Under the pieces are notes generated by a model. It had not been told where the DNA came from. It worked only from the letters and a program-made list of their open reading frames with translations, and made no database searches. The translations under genes were made by a program, and so were the position numbers. From an uncultured delta proteobacterium (lineage in GTDB: Bacteria > Myxococcota > UBA727 > VGSZ01), in assembly GCA_963775425.1 (NCBI GenBank), contig CAVZJB010000004.1:480001-544000 (forward strand): a DNA stretch of 64,000 nt, read 5' to 3'. Shown here one piece after another: positions 26,975-34,750 of this stretch (the first letter of the stretch is position 1; every line of letters starts with the position of its first letter).

Positions 26975-27904
26975 CTACGCGGCCTCCTTTCGGGTCAGCT
27001 TGAGGAACACGCCCTCGAGACCGCCCTGGTCGTCGACGAGCTGGCGCACACCGAAGCCGTGCGCCACGAGCGCCCGCACGAGCTCCTCGCGTCCGGCGTC
27101 GCTCGCCGTGACGCGCAGCCTCGACATCCCGGACGCGAGGCCGGGCAGCGCCTCGAGGGCGGTGATGCCGCCGACCTTCTGGAGCTCCGCCTTGGCGGCG
27201 TCGGTGACGTCGCCGCGCACGAGGATCTCGAAGCGCAAAGAGCCCTGCTCGAGCTCCTCGGGCTTGCCCTGCGCGACGATGCGGCCCTCGTTGAGGACGA
27301 GGATGCGGTCGCAGGTGTGCGCGATCTCGCCGAGGATGTGGCTCGACAAGAGCACCGTGTGCTTCTCGGACAGGCCCCGGATGAGGCCGCGCATGGCGAC
27401 GATCTGCGCCGGGTCGAGGCCCGAGATGGGCTCGTCGAGGACCACCAGCTTGGGCTCGTGGATGATGGCCTGCGCGATGCCCACGCGCTGGCGGTAGCCG
27501 TGGGAGAGCCACTCGACGAGGTCGTCGGCGACGGAGCCGAGGTCCGCCAGCGCGAGCACCTCGTCGACGCGCTTGTGCACGCGCCCGGCGTCGAGGCCGT
27601 TCAAGCGGCCGGCGTACGTCAGCATCTGGCGCACGGTGAGCTCGGGGTACAGCGGCGGGCGGTCCGGCAGGAAGCCGATGCGGCGGCGCAGCTCGCGCGG
27701 GGTGGCGACGCCGTCGATGCCGTCGACGACGACCTTGCCGGCCGACGGGATCAGGAGCCCGCAAAGGATCTTGAGCACCGTGGTCTTGCCCGCGCCGTTC
27801 AGGCCGAGGAAGCCGACGACCTCGCGCTCGCTGATCTGGAAGCTCACGTCGGCGAGCGCCCGCCGCGCGCCGTAGTACTTCGAGACGTTGTCAGCGGTAA
27901 TCAT
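26975..27904 (-). CDS. ABC transporter ATP-binding protein (GldA-like)
   Basis: GLNGAGKTT, LSHGYRQRVGIAQA, VVLDEPISGLDP, LSSH. Confidence 0.93.
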   Translation of the reverse strand: MITADNVSKYYGARRALADVSFQISEREVVGFLGLNGAGKTTVLKILCGLLIPSAGKVVVDGIDGVATPRELRRRIGFLPDRPPLYPELTVRQMLTYAGRLNGLDAGRVHKRVDEVLALADLGSVADDLVEWLSHGYRQRVGIAQAIIHEPKLVVLDEPISGLDPAQIVAMRGLIRGLSEKHTVLLSSHILGEIAHTCDRILVLNEGRIVAQGKPEELEQGSLRFEILVRGDVTDAAKAELQKVGGITALEALPGLASGMSRLRVTASDAGREELVRALVAHGFGVRQLVDDQGGLEGVFLKLTRKEAA

Positions 27905-28042
27905 GGCGCCTGATTGAACACCGTTACGCCGTCGACGCAAGTACCGCCTCCGCCGGGGGCGAAATGCGACCGGAGGGATGCGACCGCGCTTGATGCTCGG
28001 GGGAATGTTCTCGGACGCGGCGTGTTGATCCATGCTCGGGGC

Positions 28043-29017
28043 ATGCTGCCCGCCGTGCTCGCGATGCGCCCCCGCTACGTCGAGAAGTTGTGGGCCGGCT
28101 CTCGCCTGAAGACGCTCCCGGCCAAGCGCCGCACGCCGCCGCCGCCGGGGACGGGGGAGGCCTGGGAGGTCGCGGATCTCCCCGAGGGCGCGTCCACCGT
28201 CGACGGCGGCCCCCTCGACGGGCTCACGCTGCGCACGGTCGTCGAGCGCTTCGGCCGGGCGGTCTGCGGCGCGCGCACGCGCGCGGTCGACGGCGCGCTC
28301 CGCTTCCCCCTGCTCGTCAAGCTCATCGACGCGGGCGACGACCTCAGCGTGCAGGTGCACCCGGGCGAGGCCTTCGCGCGCGCACACCCCGGGAGCTTCG
28401 CCAAGGACGAGGCCTGGCTGGTCGTGGCGGTGGAGCCGGGCGCGCGCGTGTTGCACGGCGTGCGCGACGGCGTCGACGCCGCCGCGTTCGCCGAGGCCGT
28501 CGTCGGCGGACGCGCCGACGCGCTCCTGCGCGAGGTGCGCGTGAGCGTCGGCGACGTCCTGCGCATCGCCCCCGGCACGCTGCACGGCGTGGGCAAGGGT
28601 TGCCTGCTGCTCGAGGTGCAGCAGCCGTCGGACACCACGTTCCGCGTCTGGGACTACGACCGCGTCGACAAGGACGGCCACAAGCGCCCGCTGCACATCG
28701 AGCAAGCCCTCGCGGTCGCGCGCTTCGGCAAGCAGGACCCGCCGCTCGTCTCCGACGCCCGCCCCGGCCGCCGCGCCATCGCCACCGCGCACTACGCCAT
28801 GGGCCTCGAAGCGGTGACGCCGGGTGCGCCGCGCGTCGTCGACAAACCCCGCGGCGAGCCCGCCGTCGTCTTCGTCCTCGACGGCAGCGTCACCGTCGGG
28901 GGCGTGGAGCTGCCGGCGGGCGCCGCCGCCGTCGTCGTCGCCGACGCCGACGGCGTCGTCGCCGAGGGAGACGGCACCCTCGTCGTCATGACGCCGGGCG
29001 ACGAGGCCGCCGCGTGA
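28043..29017 (+). CDS. manA: Type I mannose-6-phosphate isomerase
   Basis: GEAW, FPLLVKLIDA..DLSVQVHP, KDEAW, PGTLHG, LEVQQPSDTTFRVWDYDR, RPLH. Confidence 0.88.
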   Translation: MLPAVLAMRPRYVEKLWAGSRLKTLPAKRRTPPPPGTGEAWEVADLPEGASTVDGGPLDGLTLRTVVERFGRAVCGARTRAVDGALRFPLLVKLIDAGDDLSVQVHPGEAFARAHPGSFAKDEAWLVVAVEPGARVLHGVRDGVDAAAFAEAVVGGRADALLREVRVSVGDVLRIAPGTLHGVGKGCLLLEVQQPSDTTFRVWDYDRVDKDGHKRPLHIEQALAVARFGKQDPPLVSDARPGRRAIATAHYAMGLEAVTPGAPRVVDKPRGEPAVVFVLDGSVTVGGVELPAGAAAVVVADADGVVAEGDGTLVVMTPGDEAAA

Positions 29018-29059
29018 GGACCGCGCGCGCCGTCGTCGAGCGGCGTCCCCCCGGGGCGC

Positions 29060-29821
29060 GTGGGGCGGCACGTGCGTAAGCTCCCGGCCCGCGCGCGCGT
29101 GGTGTTCCCCAATCCGTCCACCGCGAGCCCCGAGGGCATCGTCGCCATCGGCGCCAAGCCGTGGCCCGAGGTCCTCAAGGACGCGTACACCCGCGGCATC
29201 TTCCCGTGGCCGCACGAGGGCTATCCGCTGTTGTGGTTCAGCCCCGACCCGCGCTTCGTCCTCGAGCCGAAGCTGGGGCACCTCAACAAGAGCCTGAGGA
29301 AGGCCATGAGGCGCACGGACCTCGTCATCCGCGCCGACACGCGCTTCCGCGCGGTCATCGAGGGCTGCGCCGACAAGCGCCGCCCCGGCCAGCGCGGCAC
29401 GTGGATCACCGACGACATGATCGAGGGCTACTGCGCGCTCCACGAAGAGGGCTTCGCCCACTCCGTCGAGGCGTGGCAGTTGCTGCCCGGGGGCGAGACC
29501 CTCGTCGGGGGCCTGTACGGCGTGAGCTTCGGCGCGGTCTTCTTCGGTGAGTCCATGTTCCAGACCGCGCCCGACGCGTCGAAGATCGCGTTCGGCACGC
29601 TCCTCGGGCAGCTCGTGAAGTGGCGCTTCGACCTCGTCGACTGCCAGAGCTACACCGACCACCTCGCCCGCTTCGGCGCCGTCCACTGGCCGCGCAACAA
29701 GTTCCTCGACGTCCTCAAGGAGGCCCAGCGCGCGCCCACCCGCCAGGGCCCCTGGACCTTCGACGTCACGCCCGCCCAGGCCGCCGACCTGCTGTCGGCG
29801 CCGCTGCCCGACGAAGCCTGA
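29060..29821 (+). CDS. aat: Leucyl/phenylalanyl-tRNA--protein transferase
   Basis: AYTRGIFPW, LLWFSPDPR, TWIT, AHSVEAW, LVGGLYG, FFGESMF, DASK, LVDCQ. Confidence 0.95.
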   Translation: MGRHVRKLPARARVVFPNPSTASPEGIVAIGAKPWPEVLKDAYTRGIFPWPHEGYPLLWFSPDPRFVLEPKLGHLNKSLRKAMRRTDLVIRADTRFRAVIEGCADKRRPGQRGTWITDDMIEGYCALHEEGFAHSVEAWQLLPGGETLVGGLYGVSFGAVFFGESMFQTAPDASKIAFGTLLGQLVKWRFDLVDCQSYTDHLARFGAVHWPRNKFLDVLKEAQRAPTRQGPWTFDVTPAQAADLLSAPLPDEA

Positions 29822-29927
29822 CCTCCGGTCGCTGATCAAGCGCGGCCGCTCCCTCCGGTCGCTGATCAAGCGCGGCCGCTCCCTCCGGTCGCTGATCAAG
29901 CGCGGCCGCTCCCTCCGGTCGCTGATC
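29822..29927. repeat. Intergenic 30-bp perfect tandem repeat, about 3.5 copies
   Basis: (c)cctccggtcgctgatcaagcgcggccgct three times plus a 17-bp partial copy, starting right after the aat stop. Confidence 0.97.
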
Positions 29928-29966
29928 CGCTCGCGGCGGACACGCGACCGCGCTACATCGAGCGGC

Positions 29967-31133
29967 ATGGACGTGTCCGTCCTCCCGCGCATCGCCGACG
30001 TCCCCGCGGCCGACTGGGACGCGCTCGCCGGCGACGACAACCCCTTCGTCGAGCACGCGTTCCTGCACGCCCTCGAGGAGTCCAAGAGCGTGGGCCCGCG
30101 CACGGGGTGGCTGCCGCAGCACCTCGTCGTCAAGGAGGGCGGCGCCCTCGTGGCCGCGTTGCCCTGCTACGTGAAGACCGACAGCTACGGCGAGTACATC
30201 TTCGACTGGCAGTGGGCCCGCGCCGCCGGCCGCGCCCGCGTCGACTACTACCCCAAGCTCACCGCAGCGGTGCCGTTCACGCCCGCCACCGGCCCCCGCC
30301 TCCTCGTCAAGCCCGGCGCCCCCGTCGAGCGCGCGCGCAAGGCCCTCGCCGAGGGCATGAAGCTCCTCGAAAAGGAGCTCGGCTGCTCGTCGTCACACGT
30401 GTTGTTCTGCCGCGACGACGAGGCCGCGTCGCTCGTGGACAACGGCTTCGGCCGGCGCGCGTCGCTGCAGTACCACTGGCGAAACGGCGGGTACGACAGC
30501 TTCGACGGCTTCCTCGCCGCCCTCCGCCACGAGGAGCGCAAGCAGATCAAGCGCGAGCGCCGGCGCGTGGCGGAGTCCGGCGTCGACGTCGAGGTCATGA
30601 ACGGCGCCGACGTCCCCGACGCCCTCTGGCCCGCCGTCTTCTCGCTGTACACCTCCATCAGCGACCGCAAGTGGGGCCGCCCCTACCTCACCCGCGCCTT
30701 CTTCGATCTCATGCCGAGGCATCGCGCCGTCGTCGTGCTCGCGCGCCAGGCCGGCGCCGTCGTGGCCATGACGCTCTCGTTCGAGAAGGGCCCGCACATC
30801 TACGGCCGCTACTGGGGCTGCTCCGAGGAGATCCCCGGGCTGCACTTCGAGCTCTGCTACTACCGGCTGCTCGAGCGCTCCATCGCGAACAAGGGCAGCC
30901 TCGTCGAGGCGGGCGCGCAGGGTGAGCACAAGCTCAAGCGCGGCTTCCTCCCCGTCGTCACCCACAGCGCGCACCACATCACCGACCCGCGCTTCTCCGC
31001 GGCGGTCATGCTGTTCCTCGAGGAGGAGCGCGCGGCGGTGCTCGAGGAGCAGCAGCTCCTCCTGCAGCACGGCCCCTTCAAGGACGGCGCCGCGCCCGAC
31101 CGGCCGCTCGTCGCCGGCGTCCCCGGGCTGTGA
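29967..31133 (+). CDS. DUF482/COG3146 FemAB-like GNAT-fold protein
   Basis: NPF..HAFL.ALE, GWLPQH, SYGEYIFDWQWA, YYPKL..AVPFTP, YGRYWG, LHFELCYY, EAGAQGEHKL.RGF. Confidence 0.9.
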   Translation: MDVSVLPRIADVPAADWDALAGDDNPFVEHAFLHALEESKSVGPRTGWLPQHLVVKEGGALVAALPCYVKTDSYGEYIFDWQWARAAGRARVDYYPKLTAAVPFTPATGPRLLVKPGAPVERARKALAEGMKLLEKELGCSSSHVLFCRDDEAASLVDNGFGRRASLQYHWRNGGYDSFDGFLAALRHEERKQIKRERRRVAESGVDVEVMNGADVPDALWPAVFSLYTSISDRKWGRPYLTRAFFDLMPRHRAVVVLARQAGAVVAMTLSFEKGPHIYGRYWGCSEEIPGLHFELCYYRLLERSIANKGSLVEAGAQGEHKLKRGFLPVVTHSAHHITDPRFSAAVMLFLEEERAAVLEEQQLLLQHGPFKDGAAPDRPLVAGVPGL

Positions 31134-31142
31134 GACGTCCTG

Positions 31143-31148
31143 TGTCAA
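31143..31148 (-). promoter_or_regulatory. Outward-facing -35 hexamer TTGACA at the IS110 end (circle-junction promoter)
   Basis: Joining the ends at the core gives TTGACA-17 nt-CAACCT pointing into the putative bridge RNA. Confidence 0.6.
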
Positions 31149-31171
31149 CCACCGCGCTGCGTCACGCCATC

Positions 31172-32377
31172 TCAGGCGGCGAGCGCGGCGGCGCGGCCGT
31201 GAAGGGCCGGGTCGTACGGGACGCGGGCTTTCCAGCACGCGTACAGCACCCGGAGCCACGCACGAGCGAGGATGCGGGTCGCATGCGGGTGGTCGTGGCC
31301 GCGAGCGCGGGCAGCGTCGTAGAGGGCGGCGGCCCATGGCGAGCTGTGTCGCGAGTTGTCGGCCCAGAGGGTCACGGCGGAGCGCAGGTGCTTGTTGCAC
31401 GCCCACCGGAACGCGACGCCGACGTGCTTGCCGGACGCGAACGTTACGGGGCACACGCCAGCCTCGGCCTCGAGGTGCTCGTGGCTGTCGAAGCGCGCGC
31501 GCTCGTCGCCGAGCTCGCTGAGAATCTGCGCGGCGTTGATGCGTCCGCTGCGCGGAAACGACATCACGATGTGCCCGTCGGGGTGCGCCTCGACGGCGTG
31601 TTCGACGGCGGCGCTGAGCTTCTTGAGACGTGCGACGACGATGTCGAGGACCGCGACGAGGTGCTGCACGGCTTCCCCCTTCGCCTCGGCCTCCATCTCG
31701 CCGCACTTGCCGCTGGGCGCACCTCGCAAGCGGCCCAGGAGCTCGGCGACGTCCCTGCGACCGGAGTAGTGGTTGCGCGCCAGGAACGCTTCGAGCCGCT
31801 TCTCGCCGACGCGCTCGGCGTGCTGCGGTGTCGGGTACCTCCCGAGGAACGCCAGCGCGATGGGCGAGTCGATGTCGCGGAAGATGCACGCGGCGCCGGC
31901 CCAGAAGCTCTCAACGAGCGCGCGCAGCTGGTTCGCCAGTGCAACCCGCTCGGCAACGAGGTCGCCGCGTGCGCGAACGAGGGCACGCAGCGCCTTCGTC
32001 TCGTCTCCGAGCGGCGTGAGCGTCTTGAAGCGATGCCCATCGGTGCGCAGCAAGTCTGCCAGCAGGTAGCTGTCGCCGGGGTCGCTCTTGGCGCCAACGC
32101 TCGAGTAGCGCGGACGCGTCGCTTTCACGACGTTCGGGTGAATCGGCACGACGTGGAATCCCGCATCGACCAGCGTGTCGACGACGAGCCCCGTCGGCCG
32201 CTCGATGGCGATGCGCAGCGGCGCTTCCTCAGTGAACCTACGGAGCTTCGCCACAGCGCCGGTGAGACCCTCCTCGGTGTGCTTGACGACGAGGCGGAGC
32301 ACGACGCTGCCCTTGTCGTCGATGACGCAGACGGCGTGTTCGTTCGCCGCCCAATCCAAACCTGCAAAGTACGACAC
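31172..32377 (-). CDS. IS110-family DEDD transposase/recombinase
   Basis: FAGLDWA (D), IAIERPTG (E), KSDPGDS (DD); C-terminal Tnp domain AEAGVCPVTFASGK (catalytic Ser), CNKHLR. GTG start after AAGGAGG. Confidence 0.95.
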   Translation of the reverse strand: MSYFAGLDWAANEHAVCVIDDKGSVVLRLVVKHTEEGLTGAVAKLRRFTEEAPLRIAIERPTGLVVDTLVDAGFHVVPIHPNVVKATRPRYSSVGAKSDPGDSYLLADLLRTDGHRFKTLTPLGDETKALRALVRARGDLVAERVALANQLRALVESFWAGAACIFRDIDSPIALAFLGRYPTPQHAERVGEKRLEAFLARNHYSGRRDVAELLGRLRGAPSGKCGEMEAEAKGEAVQHLVAVLDIVVARLKKLSAAVEHAVEAHPDGHIVMSFPRSGRINAAQILSELGDERARFDSHEHLEAEAGVCPVTFASGKHVGVAFRWACNKHLRSAVTLWADNSRHSSPWAAALYDAARARGHDHPHATRILARAWLRVLYACWKARVPYDPALHGRAAALAA

Positions 32378-32409
32378 GACGGACCTCCTTGTTGCGGTAC
32401 CGTCCCCCG

Positions 32410-32585
32410 GGCTGGGAGCCTTGATCGGTTGCTCATTGACAGGCGCTCCGTCGTCGTCAGCAAACATCGTCGGGCGCAACGTCCTGTAGCCGCTTCAAGG
32501 CTCCCGGCTTCGTCGAGGGGGCGGGTCTCACAGGGGCCGTTCACCGGCAAGCGAGCGCGGCCCTCCCCGACGAAGCCCGGGAGAC
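32410..32585 (-). ncRNA. Putative IS110 bridge RNA (target-binding and donor-binding loops)
   Basis: Two adjacent stems (gcttcgtcg/cgacgaagc; ggagccttga/tcaaggctcc) enclose 7-9-nt segments that match the element's target flanks and donor ends. Ends approximate. Confidence 0.8.
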
Positions 32586-32732
32586 GGCGCCGGGAAGATC
32601 GCTCAACCCGTCACCGCGGCGTAGAGGTTGTCCAATGAGCGGCCCGGCCGCTCCCGCGGGGCGTGACCCAGCTCGCGCGCACCTGTGTTGACGCGCGTCC
32701 GGCGCCGGGGGAGCCGGTGCCCGGAGGTCTCC

Positions 32733-33452
32733 ATGAAGAACGCCGCCATCCTCGCCGCCGCCTTCGCCGGCGCCGTCGTGTTCGCCGCCTGCCCCGTCGC
32801 CGCCGCCACGGTCCACGGCTCGGGCACCGCCAGGACCGAGTCTCGCGCGCTGTCGGCGTTTTCGCGCGTGGCGCCGTCGGGCTCCTTCACCGTCGACATC
32901 GTCGCCGGTGACAAGCCCTCCGCCGAGGTCACCGCCGACGACAACATCGTCCCCCTCGTTATCACCGAGGTGAAGGGCGGCGTGCTCGCGGTCCACCTGA
33001 AGCGGAACACCAGCGTGCGCACCAAGACGCCCATCGTCGTCAAGATCACGGTGCCCTCGCTCGAGGGCGTCTCCGCGTCGGGCTCCGGCGACACCGCCGT
33101 CACCGGCGTCCCCGGCAAGGACGTGGCGCTCCTGCTGTCGGGCTCGGGCAAGCTCGCCTGGAAGGGCGCGGCCGACGCCGTCTCGCTCAAGAGCTCCGGC
33201 TCGGGCGCGGCGACGCTGTCGGGCACCGCCAAGAAGCTCGAGGTCCGCGTGTCCGGCTCCGGCGACGTCGACGCGGGCGGCCTCGCCGTCGACGACGGCG
33301 CCGTCAGCATCTCCGGCTCCGGCGCGGTGCAGGTGAACGCGAAGGCCACGCTCGACGCCCGCATCGCCGGCTCGGGCCGCGTGCGCTACACGGGCGCGCC
33401 CACGGTCACCAAGAAGATCACGGGCTCCGGCACCGTCGCGCCGGCGACGTAG
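32733..33452 (+). CDS. DUF2807 / head-GIN domain secreted protein
   Basis: Signal peptide, VHGSG...ESR, DDNIVPLV, repeated SGSG beta-helix units; GGAGG RBS. Confidence 0.85.
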   Translation: MKNAAILAAAFAGAVVFAACPVAAATVHGSGTARTESRALSAFSRVAPSGSFTVDIVAGDKPSAEVTADDNIVPLVITEVKGGVLAVHLKRNTSVRTKTPIVVKITVPSLEGVSASGSGDTAVTGVPGKDVALLLSGSGKLAWKGAADAVSLKSSGSGAATLSGTAKKLEVRVSGSGDVDAGGLAVDDGAVSISGSGAVQVNAKATLDARIAGSGRVRYTGAPTVTKKITGSGTVAPAT

Positions 33453-33472
33453 GGCGCGCCTCGCCGAGCCCG

Positions 33473-34750
33473 TCAGAAGCAGTCGGGGTCGGGGAGCGGG
33501 CAGAAATCGTCGCAGAACTGCCCGTCGCCGTAGAAGCCGTTGGCGGCGCAGATGTCCTCGACGCACTGGGTGCCGGTGGCGTCGACGACGAAGCCGGGGT
33601 CGCACGAGCACAGGCCGTTGCCCGCCGGGCTCGAGTTGGCCGGGCACAGCGCCGTATCGTCGAGGACGCACTGGGTGCCGCTGGCGTCGACGACGAAGCC
33701 GTCGTCGCACAAGCAGAAGTTGGCGTCGGCCGGGTCAGGCGAGGCGTTTGCGGGGCAGCCGTCGCCGAGCGTGGCCGGGTCGAGCTCGCAGCCGGTGCCG
33801 GCGGCGTTCACGACGAAGCCGTCGTCGCACAGGCAGAAGTTGGCGTCGCTCGGGTCGGGCGAGGCGTTGTCCGGGCAGCCGGCGCCGACGGGGTCGGAGG
33901 CCTGCGCCTCGCAGCCGGTGCCGGCGGCGTTCACGACGAAGCCGTCGTCGCACACGCAGAAGTTGGCGTCGCTCGGGTCGGGCGAGGCGTTCGCGGGGCA
34001 GCCGTCGGCGGCGGTCTCGGGCGGGGGGGTGCTCGTGGCGGTGTCGGCGACGCAGCCGTTGCCGCTGCGCACGAAGCCGGGATCGCACGCGCAGGTCTCC
34101 GTGCCGGGCACGGGTGAGGCGTGCGGCACGCAGGTCGTCGTCGACGACGGGGTCGCGGGATCGCAGGTGCCGGTGGCGGTGTCGGCGGTGAAGCCGTCGT
34201 CGCACTCACAGACGCCGTTGCCGCCCGGGACGGGCGAGGCGTGGGCCGGGCATGCGCCGCCCGCGGCGCCCGCGGCGGCCACGCACGCGCCGGCGCCGCC
34301 GCAGACCTCGCCGGCGCCGCAGTCGGCGTCGCCGGCACACTCGACGCACAGGCCGGTGCGCGCGGCGTCGTCCGTGTTGCAGACGGGGGTGGCGCCGCCG
34401 CACTGCGCCGCGGTGCGGCACCAGCCGGGGAGGAGCGGCTCGCACCCGCCGGTGGAGGTGTCACAGAAGCTGTCGGCCGGGCAGTCGCGGGTCTCGGTGC
34501 AGGAGGCCGGCGCCGACGCCGGCGGCGCGGCGCACGAGCCGTCCAAGCACAGCTCCCCGGCGGCGACGTCGCACTCGAGGTCGGCGCTGCAGCTCGTGCG
34601 GGCGACGCAGGCGCCGTCGACGCAGCTCTCGCCGGCGAGGCAGGCGTTGTCGTCGTCGCAGGGGGCCCGGTTGACGGTGGCGACGCCGCCGCACGCCGCG
34701 GCCAGGAGCCCGAGGAGCCCGAGGAGCAGCAAGGGGAGCGACCGCCGCAT
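33473..34750 (-). CDS. Cysteine-rich repeat lipoprotein (EGF-like repeats)
   Basis: Lipobox LAAAC; about six CPxxASP...CxCDxGF...C repeats. Confidence 0.8.
   Translation of the reverse strand: MRRSLPLLLLGLLGLLAAACGGVATVNRAPCDDDNACLAGESCVDGACVARTSCSADLECDVAAGELCLDGSCAAPPASAPASCTETRDCPADSFCDTSTGGCEPLLPGWCRTAAQCGGATPVCNTDDAARTGLCVECAGDADCGAGEVCGGAGACVAAAGAAGGACPAHASPVPGGNGVCECDDGFTADTATGTCDPATPSSTTTCVPHASPVPGTETCACDPGFVRSGNGCVADTATSTPPPETAADGCPANASPDPSDANFCVCDDGFVVNAAGTGCEAQASDPVGAGCPDNASPDPSDANFCLCDDGFVVNAAGTGCELDPATLGDGCPANASPDPADANFCLCDDGFVVDASGTQCVLDDTALCPANSSPAGNGLCSCDPGFVVDATGTQCVEDICAANGFYGDGQFCDDFCPLPDPDCF

What the first reader, a model, noticed from the sequence alone, without database searches (positions are those of the whole stretch)
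32431..32533. Right-hand guides extend into the post-recombination junctions (handshake-like bases)
The RTG-like segment continues as CTGTGAG-AC, matching the hybrid left junction ctgtgagac (31128-31136), including two IS-derived bases. The RDG-like segment continues as CAATGAG-C, matching the hybrid right junction caatgagc (32633-32640), including one target-derived base. In IS621, handshake bases pair with the exchanged strands and bias direction. Inference: this RNA is set to favour insertion products.
Basis: partly seen in the sequence, partly recalled or inferred. Interest (0 to 1): 0.7.

Follow-up and report, generated by a model that had tools for sequence, protein, structure and literature searches.

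The report
IS110 bridge RNA handshake bases
The flagged bases are the expected "handshake" nucleotides of an ordinary IS110-family jumping gene whose guide RNA is built, like the well-studied IS621, to pair better with the products of insertion than with the starting DNA.

Summary
Observation confirmed. The window holds an intact IS110-family element on the minus strand (cores at 32639-32638 and 31134-31133; 4 full copies and 1 partial in the genome). Its left end encodes a two-loop bridge RNA.

CUGUG-AG-AC (32533-32525) is RTG, core pairing and two handshake bases. CAAUG-AG-C (32438-32431) is RDG, core pairing and one handshake base.

The extra bases pair with the non-cognate substrate: IS-end G-T at positions 6-7, and flank G at position 7. 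They do not pair with the cognate one. That gives 0 handshake pairs before strand exchange and 3 after.

In 86 related RNAs found with a covariance model the same pattern holds:
- target-loop base 1 with donor position 7: 70 of 70
- target-loop base 2 with donor position 6: 68 of 70
- donor-loop base 1 with target position 7: 60 of 60
- cognate pairing: 0 of 54 at three of the four positions, 12 of 54 at the fourth

These positions are nearly invariant in the clade, so independent covariation is thin: one fully compensated switch, plus two compensated differences from IS621.

The mechanism and its bias towards insertion are already published for IS621 (Hiraizumi 2024, 2026). This is a new member of a known kind, of low interest.

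A side observation may be more interesting: this clade inserts exactly on TGA stop codons of convergent genes.

The parts
31133..32639 (-). IS110-family insertion sequence including the CT core copy at each boundary. The body is 31135-32637, 1503 bp.
   Evidence: 5 copies in the own genome share exactly this stretch. The CT core is found at 59 of 60 left and 68 of 70 right junctions of relatives.
32640..32641 (-). Target positions 7 (G, 32640) and 6 (C, 32641) of the left flank. Position 7 is the partner of the donor-loop handshake base.
   Evidence: G in 5 of 5 copies; position 6 is C in 4 of 5. Position 7 pairs with the donor-loop handshake base in 60 of 60 relatives.
32633..32637 (-). Right donor (RD) CATTG, the first bases of the IS left end, complementary to the RDG.
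32561..32568 (-). Target-binding loop, outer helix, 5' strand. It pairs with 32515-32521.
   Evidence: Helix 1: 7 of 7 pairs show compensatory changes; 95.6% of cells are paired.
32550..32558 (-). Left target guide plus core (GCGCUCG-CU), 9 nt as in IS621.
   Evidence: Position by homology. LTG identity to flanks at positions 1-7 across relatives is 10, 28, 39, 31, 36, 53, 60 of 60, against 8.6 to 58 when shuffled.
32536..32548 (-). Target-binding loop, inner hairpin.
   Evidence: Helix 2: 99.7% of cells paired.
32527..32533 (-). Right target guide CUGUG (32533-32529) plus the core-pairing AG (32528-32527).
   Evidence: Pairs with CACAG plus CT at 4 of 4 right junctions. RTG against RT in relatives is 51, 65, 68, 68, 70 of 70, against 27, 34, 35, 62, 68 when shuffled.
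32525..32526 (-). Target-loop handshake guide A (32526) and C (32525). It pairs with donor T7 (31135) and G6 (31136), not with target G7 and C6.
   Evidence: In relatives: 70 of 70 and 68 of 70 paired with the donor; 0 of 54 and 12 of 54 with the target.
32490..32504 (-). Donor-binding loop, outer helix, 5' strand. It pairs with 32415-32428.
   Evidence: Helix 3: 10 of 11 pairs show compensatory changes.
32478..32485 (-). Left donor guide AGGACGU-U, 8 nt as in IS621. It matches the IS right end AGGACGT plus the core C through a U-G wobble.
   Evidence: LDG against LD identity at positions 1-7 in relatives is 70, 70, 68, 69, 70, 69, 45 of 70.
32432..32438 (-). Right donor guide CAAUG (32438-32434) plus the core-pairing AG (32433-32432).
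32430..32431 (-). Donor-loop handshake base C (32431), which pairs with target G7. The second position, A (32430), does not pair with target C6 at 4 of 5 sites.
   Evidence: In relatives: 60 of 60 for base 1; only 36 of 60 for base 2, which does not track target position 6.
31172..32377 (-). Recombinase gene, 401 aa, GTG start, with AAGGAGG at 32384-32390.
   Evidence: Pfam DEDD_Tnp_IS110 1.9e-32 and Transposase_20 2.6e-14. NCBIfam NF033542 'IS110 family RNA-guided transposase' 183.1 bits against a cut-off of 140. D8, E59, D99 and D102 are invariant; S315 is kept in 7 of 8 aligned.
31135..31150 (-). IS right end, GGTTGACACAG plus 5 nt. It contains a -35-like TTGACA (31148-31143) and the left donor AGGACGT (31141-31135, with d6 = 31136 and d7 = 31135).
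   Evidence: The motif was found at 71 related loci.
31128..31132 (-). Right target CACAG in the flank. Together with the core T its complement forms the codons CTG TGA that end the plus-strand ORF 29967-31133.

Best explanation
The span lies in the bridge RNA of an intact IS110-family insertion sequence read on the minus strand. The RNA has a target-binding loop (LTG 32558-32550, RTG 32533-32527) and a donor-binding loop (LDG 32485-32478, RDG 32438-32432).

The two bases 3' of the RTG (A, C) and the one base 3' of the RDG (C) are handshake guides. They cannot pair with the substrate their own loop holds. After the top strands are cut next to the CT core and swapped, they pair with positions 7 and 6 of the incoming strand: IS-end T and G for the target loop, flank G for the donor loop.

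Insertion therefore gains three RNA-DNA pairs (0 to 3) and excision would lose them. This biases the reaction towards the inserted state, as shown for IS621.

Shown here: the element, its ends, the RNA fold, the guide-substrate complementarity and its conservation. Inferred by analogy: the strand-exchange chemistry and the direction bias.
For: Recombinase family: Pfam, NCBIfam and a weak PDB hit to the IS621 and ISCro4 transposases.

Copies and junctions.

RNA fold: MFE -133.1 kcal/mol against -104.2 for shuffles, z -6.08. A covariance model built from 8 relatives finds the RNA in 86 of 90 sources, with the window at 142.4 bits. Of the structure's cells, 95.4% are paired, 21 of 26 pairs show compensatory change, and slid controls give 30-45%.

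Architecture mirrors what IS621 passages describe: a 9-nt LTG, an 8-nt LDG, and handshake bases directly 3' of the core-pairing bases.

Handshake counts in relatives: non-cognate pairing 70 of 70, 68 of 70 and 60 of 60. Cognate pairing 0 of 54, 12 of 54, 0 of 54 and 0 of 54. Per element there are 0 (42 loci) or 1 (12 loci) pairs before exchange and 3 (23 loci) or 4 (31 loci) after.

One element (L022/L091) has switched LTG7, target position 7 and the donor-loop handshake base together, to C, C and G.

Relative to IS621 (target 6-7 = G-C, donor 6-7 = A-T, handshake bases A81 U82 / G166 U167), two of the pairs here are compensated changes: U:A to C:G and G:C to C:G.

Published function: PMC11208158 and PMC13626964.
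Against: There is no expression, circle-junction or empty-site evidence for this element.

The handshake bases and their partners are almost invariant in the clade, so the high counts reflect few independent events. The base after the target-loop handshake pair is also conserved although it pairs with donor position 5 in only 2 of 70, so conservation alone could be structural.

Where donor position 6 or target-loop base 2 does vary, the change is not compensated by a Watson-Crick pair: L028 and L111 have A at d6 against C, and L110 has a G-U wobble.

Donor-loop base 2 does not follow target position 6 (36 of 60).

That the flank G at position 7 is target-derived rests on the IS110 model, the LTG match and L022, not on an empty site.

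The short words are not rare in the window by themselves.
Confidence: 0.85

Rival explanations
1. The extra bases are conserved linker nucleotides of the RNA scaffold, held for fold or protein contacts. Their complementarity to the opposite substrate is a frozen accident of one ancestor and has no effect on direction.
For: Near-invariance of A-C and C across 83 RNAs, and of the next base as well. Changes at donor position 6 are uncompensated in L028 and L111. Donor-loop base 2 does not covary.
Against: The L022/L091 triple switch. The compensated differences from IS621. Cognate pairing is avoided at three of four positions in 54 of 54 loci. IS621 experiments show these exact positions control strand exchange.
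Confidence: 0.08
2. The IS boundaries or the crossover point are mis-set, so the extra matches are simply longer ordinary (cognate) guide pairing.
For: CTCA is shared by both junctions, so the crossover cannot be fixed to CT from the copies alone. The G at position 7 is identical in 5 of 5 copies, and no empty site was found.
Against: The bases 5' of the shared CTCA differ between the two junctions: C-G in the flank against G-T in the IS end. They therefore cannot come from one substrate wherever the crossover lies within CTCA. Position 6 varies among copies. Position 7 follows LTG7 in L022.
Confidence: 0.03
3. The repeats act as DNA, as subterminal inverted repeats bound by the transposase, and not as RNA guides.
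For: At the DNA level each word is an inverted repeat of a junction. No RNA data were available.
Against: The RTG-like segment tracks host flank sequence that differs from locus to locus: 51 to 68 of 70 at variable positions, against 27 to 35 when shuffled. The segments lie in internal loops of a helix-supported RNA fold. The protein is scored as an RNA-guided IS110 transposase.
Confidence: 0.02

Closest known systems
IS621 (E. coli) bridge recombinase, bridge RNA and handshake guides (PMC11208160, PMC11208158, PMC13626964)
   Same: DEDD plus Ser recombinase. The RNA lies in the left end upstream of the gene. It has two loops, with a 9-nt LTG, an 8-nt LDG and a CT core. Handshake bases lie directly 3' of the core-pairing bases. 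Two handshake pairs form on the target loop and one on the donor loop. There are more pairs after exchange than before. The right end carries a -35-like box.
   Different: The protein is only distantly similar (phmmer E 3.9e-07, C-terminal part only). The handshake pairs have other letters (C:G where IS621 has U:A; C:G where IS621 has G:C). There are 0 pairs before exchange rather than 1. The RDG is contiguous, with no flipped-out bases evident. Both substrates share CTCA. Targets are gene ends rather than REP elements.
ISCro4 / IS622-type bridge recombinases used for genome engineering
   Same: Same family and RNA-guided logic. ISCro4 transposase is a PDB hit at E 9.8e-07.
   Different: The match is distant. 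I saw only search listings and abstracts for the IS622 work.
IS1111-group elements with seekRNA (bioRxiv 10.1101/2024.04.26.591405)
   Same: DEDD transposase and an RNA with two internal loops that read the target and the IS ends.
   Different: There the RNA lies downstream of the transposase gene (passages). Here it lies upstream, in the IS110-type arrangement.

Membership tests
IS110-family bridge-RNA element (IS110 group) | Recombinase with a DEDD RuvC-like domain and a Tnp domain carrying a catalytic Ser | tested here: met
   PF01548 and PF02371. NF033542 scores 183.1 bits, above its cut-off of 140. D8, E59, D99 and D102 are invariant in 8 aligned proteins. S315 in an SG motif aligns with the IS621 'ESG' motif. 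That this Ser is the catalytic one is inferred.
IS110-family bridge-RNA element (IS110 group) | Non-coding RNA in the left end, upstream of the gene, with two stem-loops that each carry an internal loop | tested here: met
   Rfam holds no matching family: there was no hit above chance.
IS110-family bridge-RNA element (IS110 group) | LTG and RTG match the flanks, and LDG and RDG match the IS ends, on opposite strands around a short core | tested here: met
   The LTG match is weak at positions 1-5 for the window's own five sites (3 to 6 of 7 by eye).
IS110-family bridge-RNA element (IS110 group) | CT core dinucleotide at both boundaries | tested here: met
   Window copies: 5 of 5 left and 4 of 4 right. 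Relatives: 59 of 60 and 68 of 70.
IS110-family bridge-RNA element (IS110 group) | Handshake guides: 2 nt 3' of the core-pairing bases of the RTG and RDG, complementary to positions 7-6 of the non-cognate top strand | tested here: met
   3 of 4 positions pair in the window. The second donor-loop position does not pair, as in wild-type IS621.
IS110-family bridge-RNA element (IS110 group) | Promoter rebuilt across the RE-LE junction of the circular form | tested here: inconclusive
   A conserved TTGACA lies 10 nt before the right core. No convincing -10 was seen in the left end. The promoter scan of the integrated copy found 0 sites.
IS110-family bridge-RNA element (IS110 group) | Circular intermediate; insertion favoured over excision through handshake pairing | not testable with these tools
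   No run holds the locus well enough, and contigs of the two small holders gave no joint over the IS.

The most novel reading that the evidence does not exclude
In this clade both substrates share CTCA, whose complement is TGAG. Together with the invariant G at target position 7, which is read by both LTG7 and the donor-loop handshake base, this may act as a stop-codon homing device.

The element lands exactly on the TGA of a convergent gene and keeps the stop codon intact with its own core copy, so it persists as a near-neutral insertion.

Of 57 unique right flanks, 54 have a stop codon at that position. Of those 57, 37 meet a strict gene-end criterion, against 22 of 339 TGAG sites elsewhere in the window. 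All 4 full copies in this genome meet it.

Whether this is evolved targeting or only survival of harmless insertions is open.
Probability: 0.4. Interest if true: 0.55.

Novelty: new member of a known kind. Interest (0 to 1): 0.25.

Why it matters
It shows that the handshake rule worked out on IS621 also holds in a distant, high-GC, soil-type clade of IS110 elements: more RNA-DNA pairs after strand exchange than before, and no pairing with the cognate substrate. The pairs here use different letters. This is useful as an independent natural example for designing bridge RNAs.

It adds no new mechanism. The stop-codon landing pattern of the clade could be of wider interest for how RNA-guided insertion sequences choose harmless sites.

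Tried and rejected
Rfam scan of 30500-33500: only two sub-threshold chance hits (mir-598, snoZ206) and no bridge-RNA family.

Empty site in 30 relatives: the flanking gene is only about 70% identical and its downstream DNA is unrelated, so no empty site was obtained.

Reading-frame test of whether the flank G belongs to the target: not decisive, because the site lies on a stop codon. At L004 the phase is compatible with a downstream gene starting at an overlapping GTG.

Sequencing runs: no RNA holder is listed. Two DNA holders carry 5-6% of the words. Laying them gave only short related fragments and no joint across the IS.

Promoter and terminator scan of the integrated copy: 0 promoter-like sites.

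I fell back on the window alone, which holds two unoccupied GCTCACAG sites, neither an in-frame stop.

Distant plasmid relatives (8 of 618 records fetched):
- The model found the RNA in L111 (127.9 bits), L115 (39.3 bits) and L116 (16.2 bits), and not in the other 5.
- By eye, the target-loop RNA of all three keeps AG-AC. The right end ends in G-T in L115 and L116, while L111 has A at d6.
- L116 shows G at the donor-loop handshake position, but I could not place its left junction with confidence, so it is not counted.

Literature on stop-codon targeting: one search listed nothing on it. The 'stop codon' hits in the seekRNA preprint refer to the transposase gene.

Full report
WHAT IS THERE

The window carries an IS110-family insertion sequence on the minus strand. 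A 401-aa ORF (31172-32377, GTG start, AAGGAGG seven bases upstream) matches Pfam DEDD_Tnp_IS110 (1.9e-32) and Transposase_20 (2.6e-14). It also matches NCBIfam NF033542 'IS110 family RNA-guided transposase' at 183.1 bits, above the cut-off of 140. Its only solved relatives are the IS621 and ISCro4 transposases, and they are distant (E 3.9e-07 and 9.8e-07, C-terminal part). D8, E59, D99 and D102 are invariant among 8 aligned relatives. S315, in an SG motif that aligns with IS621's ESG, is kept in 7 of 8.

The genome holds 4 full copies and 1 truncated copy at 99-100% identity.

BOUNDARIES

In element orientation, all 5 left junctions read flank-G|CT|CATTG. All 4 right junctions read ..GACGT|CT|CACAG-flank.
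- Left flanks differ at positions 1-5. Position 6 is C in 4 copies and T in 1. Position 7 is always G.
- Both junctions share CTCA, so the crossover cannot be fixed within those four bases from the copies alone.
- The bases 5' of CTCA differ: C-G in the flank and G-T in the IS end. Wherever the crossover lies, the G-T is IS DNA and the flank G precedes the shared stretch.
- No empty site could be found. The relatives searched are only about 70% identical, and public runs hold only fragments.

THE OBSERVATION

CTGTGAGAC occurs at 31128-31136 (+) and 32525-32533 (-), and nowhere else in the window. CAATGAGC occurs at 32633-32640 (+) and 32431-32438 (-), and nowhere else. Two occurrences of such short words are not rare by themselves: 11 of 100 and 33 of 100 shuffles reach that number. 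The argument therefore has to come from position and from relatives.

THE RNA

The minus strand 32640-32395 folds far better than shuffles (-133.1 against -104.2 kcal/mol, z -6.08).

I fetched 10 related loci from genomes (45-67% protein identity, several phyla) and 80 from metagenomes. I built a covariance model from 8 of them and found the RNA in 86 of 90 sources. Three of those hits are cut at a contig end, and three others match the model only in part.

On that alignment the four helices are paired in 95.4% of cells, and 21 of 26 pairs show changes on both sides. Slid controls give 30-45%. The alignment was fitted to the model, which favours the structure somewhat.

The layout in the window is:
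- outer helix, 9-nt LTG (GCGCUCG-CU), hairpin, 2-nt linker, RTG CUGUG, core-pairing AG, then A-C, linker, outer helix;
- then the same plan for the donor loop, with an 8-nt LDG (AGGACGU-U), RDG CAAUG, AG, then C-A.

These lengths and orders are those given for IS621: LTG A50-U58, LDG A123-C130, handshake bases at 81-82 and 166-167 directly after the core-pairing bases (PMC11208158 passages).

GUIDES TRACK THEIR SUBSTRATES

I located left junctions by the complement of RDG plus core, and right junctions by the conserved right-end motif. Neither search uses the handshake bases. Counting each distinct junction once:
- RTG pairs with the right flank at 51, 65, 68, 68, 70 of 70, against 27, 34, 35, 62, 68 when shuffled.
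- LTG equals the left flank at 10, 28, 39, 31, 36, 53, 60 of 60, against 8.6 to 58 when shuffled.
- LDG equals the IS end at 45 to 70 of 70.

Rows dropped before counting: loci whose contig ends before the junction, left junctions found only with one mismatch, and duplicates.

THE HANDSHAKE POSITIONS

In the window:
- The target-loop bases A, C face target G7, C6 (no pair). After exchange they face donor T7, G6 (two pairs).
- The donor-loop base C faces donor T7 (no pair) and after exchange target G7 (one pair).
- The next base, A, pairs with neither, except with the T at position 6 of the L005 site.

So there are 0 pairs before exchange and 3 after.

In relatives:
- Non-cognate pairing is 70 of 70, 68 of 70 (69 with wobble) and 60 of 60.
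- The second donor-loop base pairs in only 36 of 60 and does not follow target position 6.
- Cognate pairing is 0 of 54, 12 of 54, 0 of 54 and 0 of 54.
- Per locus there are 0 (42) or 1 (12) pairs before exchange and 3 (23) or 4 (31) after.

HOW STRONG IS THIS?

It is less strong than the counts look, because these positions hardly vary in the clade.
- Independent support is one element (L022 and L091, the same insertion) in which LTG7, target position 7 and the donor-loop handshake base changed together to C, C, G.
- There are also two pairs that differ in a compensated way from IS621 (U:A to C:G, and G:C to C:G; IS621 letters).
- Against covariation: where donor position 6 is A (L028, L111) the RNA keeps C, and L110 has a wobble.
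- The base after the target-loop handshake pair is conserved too, without pairing (2 of 70).

In two distant plasmid relatives (33% and 32% protein identity) the model still finds AG-AC in the target loop and G-T at the IS end. A possible second switch in L116 could not be verified.

MECHANISM

By analogy with IS621, the recombinase-RNA complex holds the target on one loop and the circular IS junction on the other. It cuts the top strands after the CT core and swaps them. The handshake bases then pair with positions 7-6 of the incoming strands.

Hiraizumi et al. showed that pairing after exchange promotes the reaction and pairing before exchange blocks it (passages). They also showed that the natural pattern (1 pair before, 3 after) drives insertion and suppresses excision, and they call the pattern highly conserved among IS110 elements (abstract and passages).

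The element here fits that rule with 0 pairs before and 3 after.

NOVELTY

The mechanism is in print, so this is a further natural example from a distant clade.

SIDE OBSERVATION: STOP CODONS

The complement of core-T plus right-target positions 10-11 is TGA in 53 of 57 unique right flanks, and TAA in one more. In 37 of 57 the frame ending in that stop is open through the whole flank examined (40-100 codons) and has the highest third-position G+C, at least 0.8.

Among 339 other TGAG sites in the window, 22 meet the criterion applied with 100 codons. That control is slightly stricter than for the shorter flanks.

All 4 full copies in this genome sit on the stop codon of a convergent gene. In the window this is ORF 29967-31133, whose TGA at 31131-31133 is kept by the IS's own core copy. 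Two unoccupied GCTCACAG sites in the window are not in-frame stops.

One literature search found nothing on this.

Noticed in passing
31128-31134 and right junctions of L002-L004, L021-L110: Insertions of this IS clade sit exactly on the TGA stop codon of a gene that converges on the transposase gene, and the IS core copy keeps the stop intact. Of 57 unique flanks, 54 have a stop codon there and 37 meet a strict gene-end criterion, against 22 of 339 background TGAG sites in the window. All 4 full copies in this genome do so.
   Followed up: partly
31140-31150 (minus strand): The IS right end carries a nearly invariant GGTTGACACAG, with a perfect -35-like TTGACA 10 nt before the core. It was found at 71 related loci. 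This fits a promoter rebuilt across the circle junction as in IS621, but no clear -10 was seen in the left end.
   Followed up: partly
32550-32558 versus left flanks of L001-L005: The five insertion sites in this genome match the LTG well only at positions 6-7. Positions 1-5 mostly differ. Family-wide, LTG positions 2-5 match in about half to two thirds of sites. Left-target recognition therefore looks loose, which is reminiscent of the 'half-match' idea in a 2026 preprint of which I saw only the listing and abstract.
   Followed up: partly
L005 (own genome, contig 18): A fifth copy is cut off after about 940 bp of the element. Only its left junction is present.
   Followed up: no
LDG position 7 in relatives (alignment A3): LDG position 7 equals donor T7 in only 45 of 70 loci. 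In many relatives the donor's position 7 is therefore not held by its own loop.
   Followed up: no
26975-30133 region: A short peptide-level repeat (..ISDRRERPRL.. three times) appears in a long minus-strand ORF listing upstream of the flanking gene. It is probably a tandem DNA repeat and was not examined.
   Followed up: no
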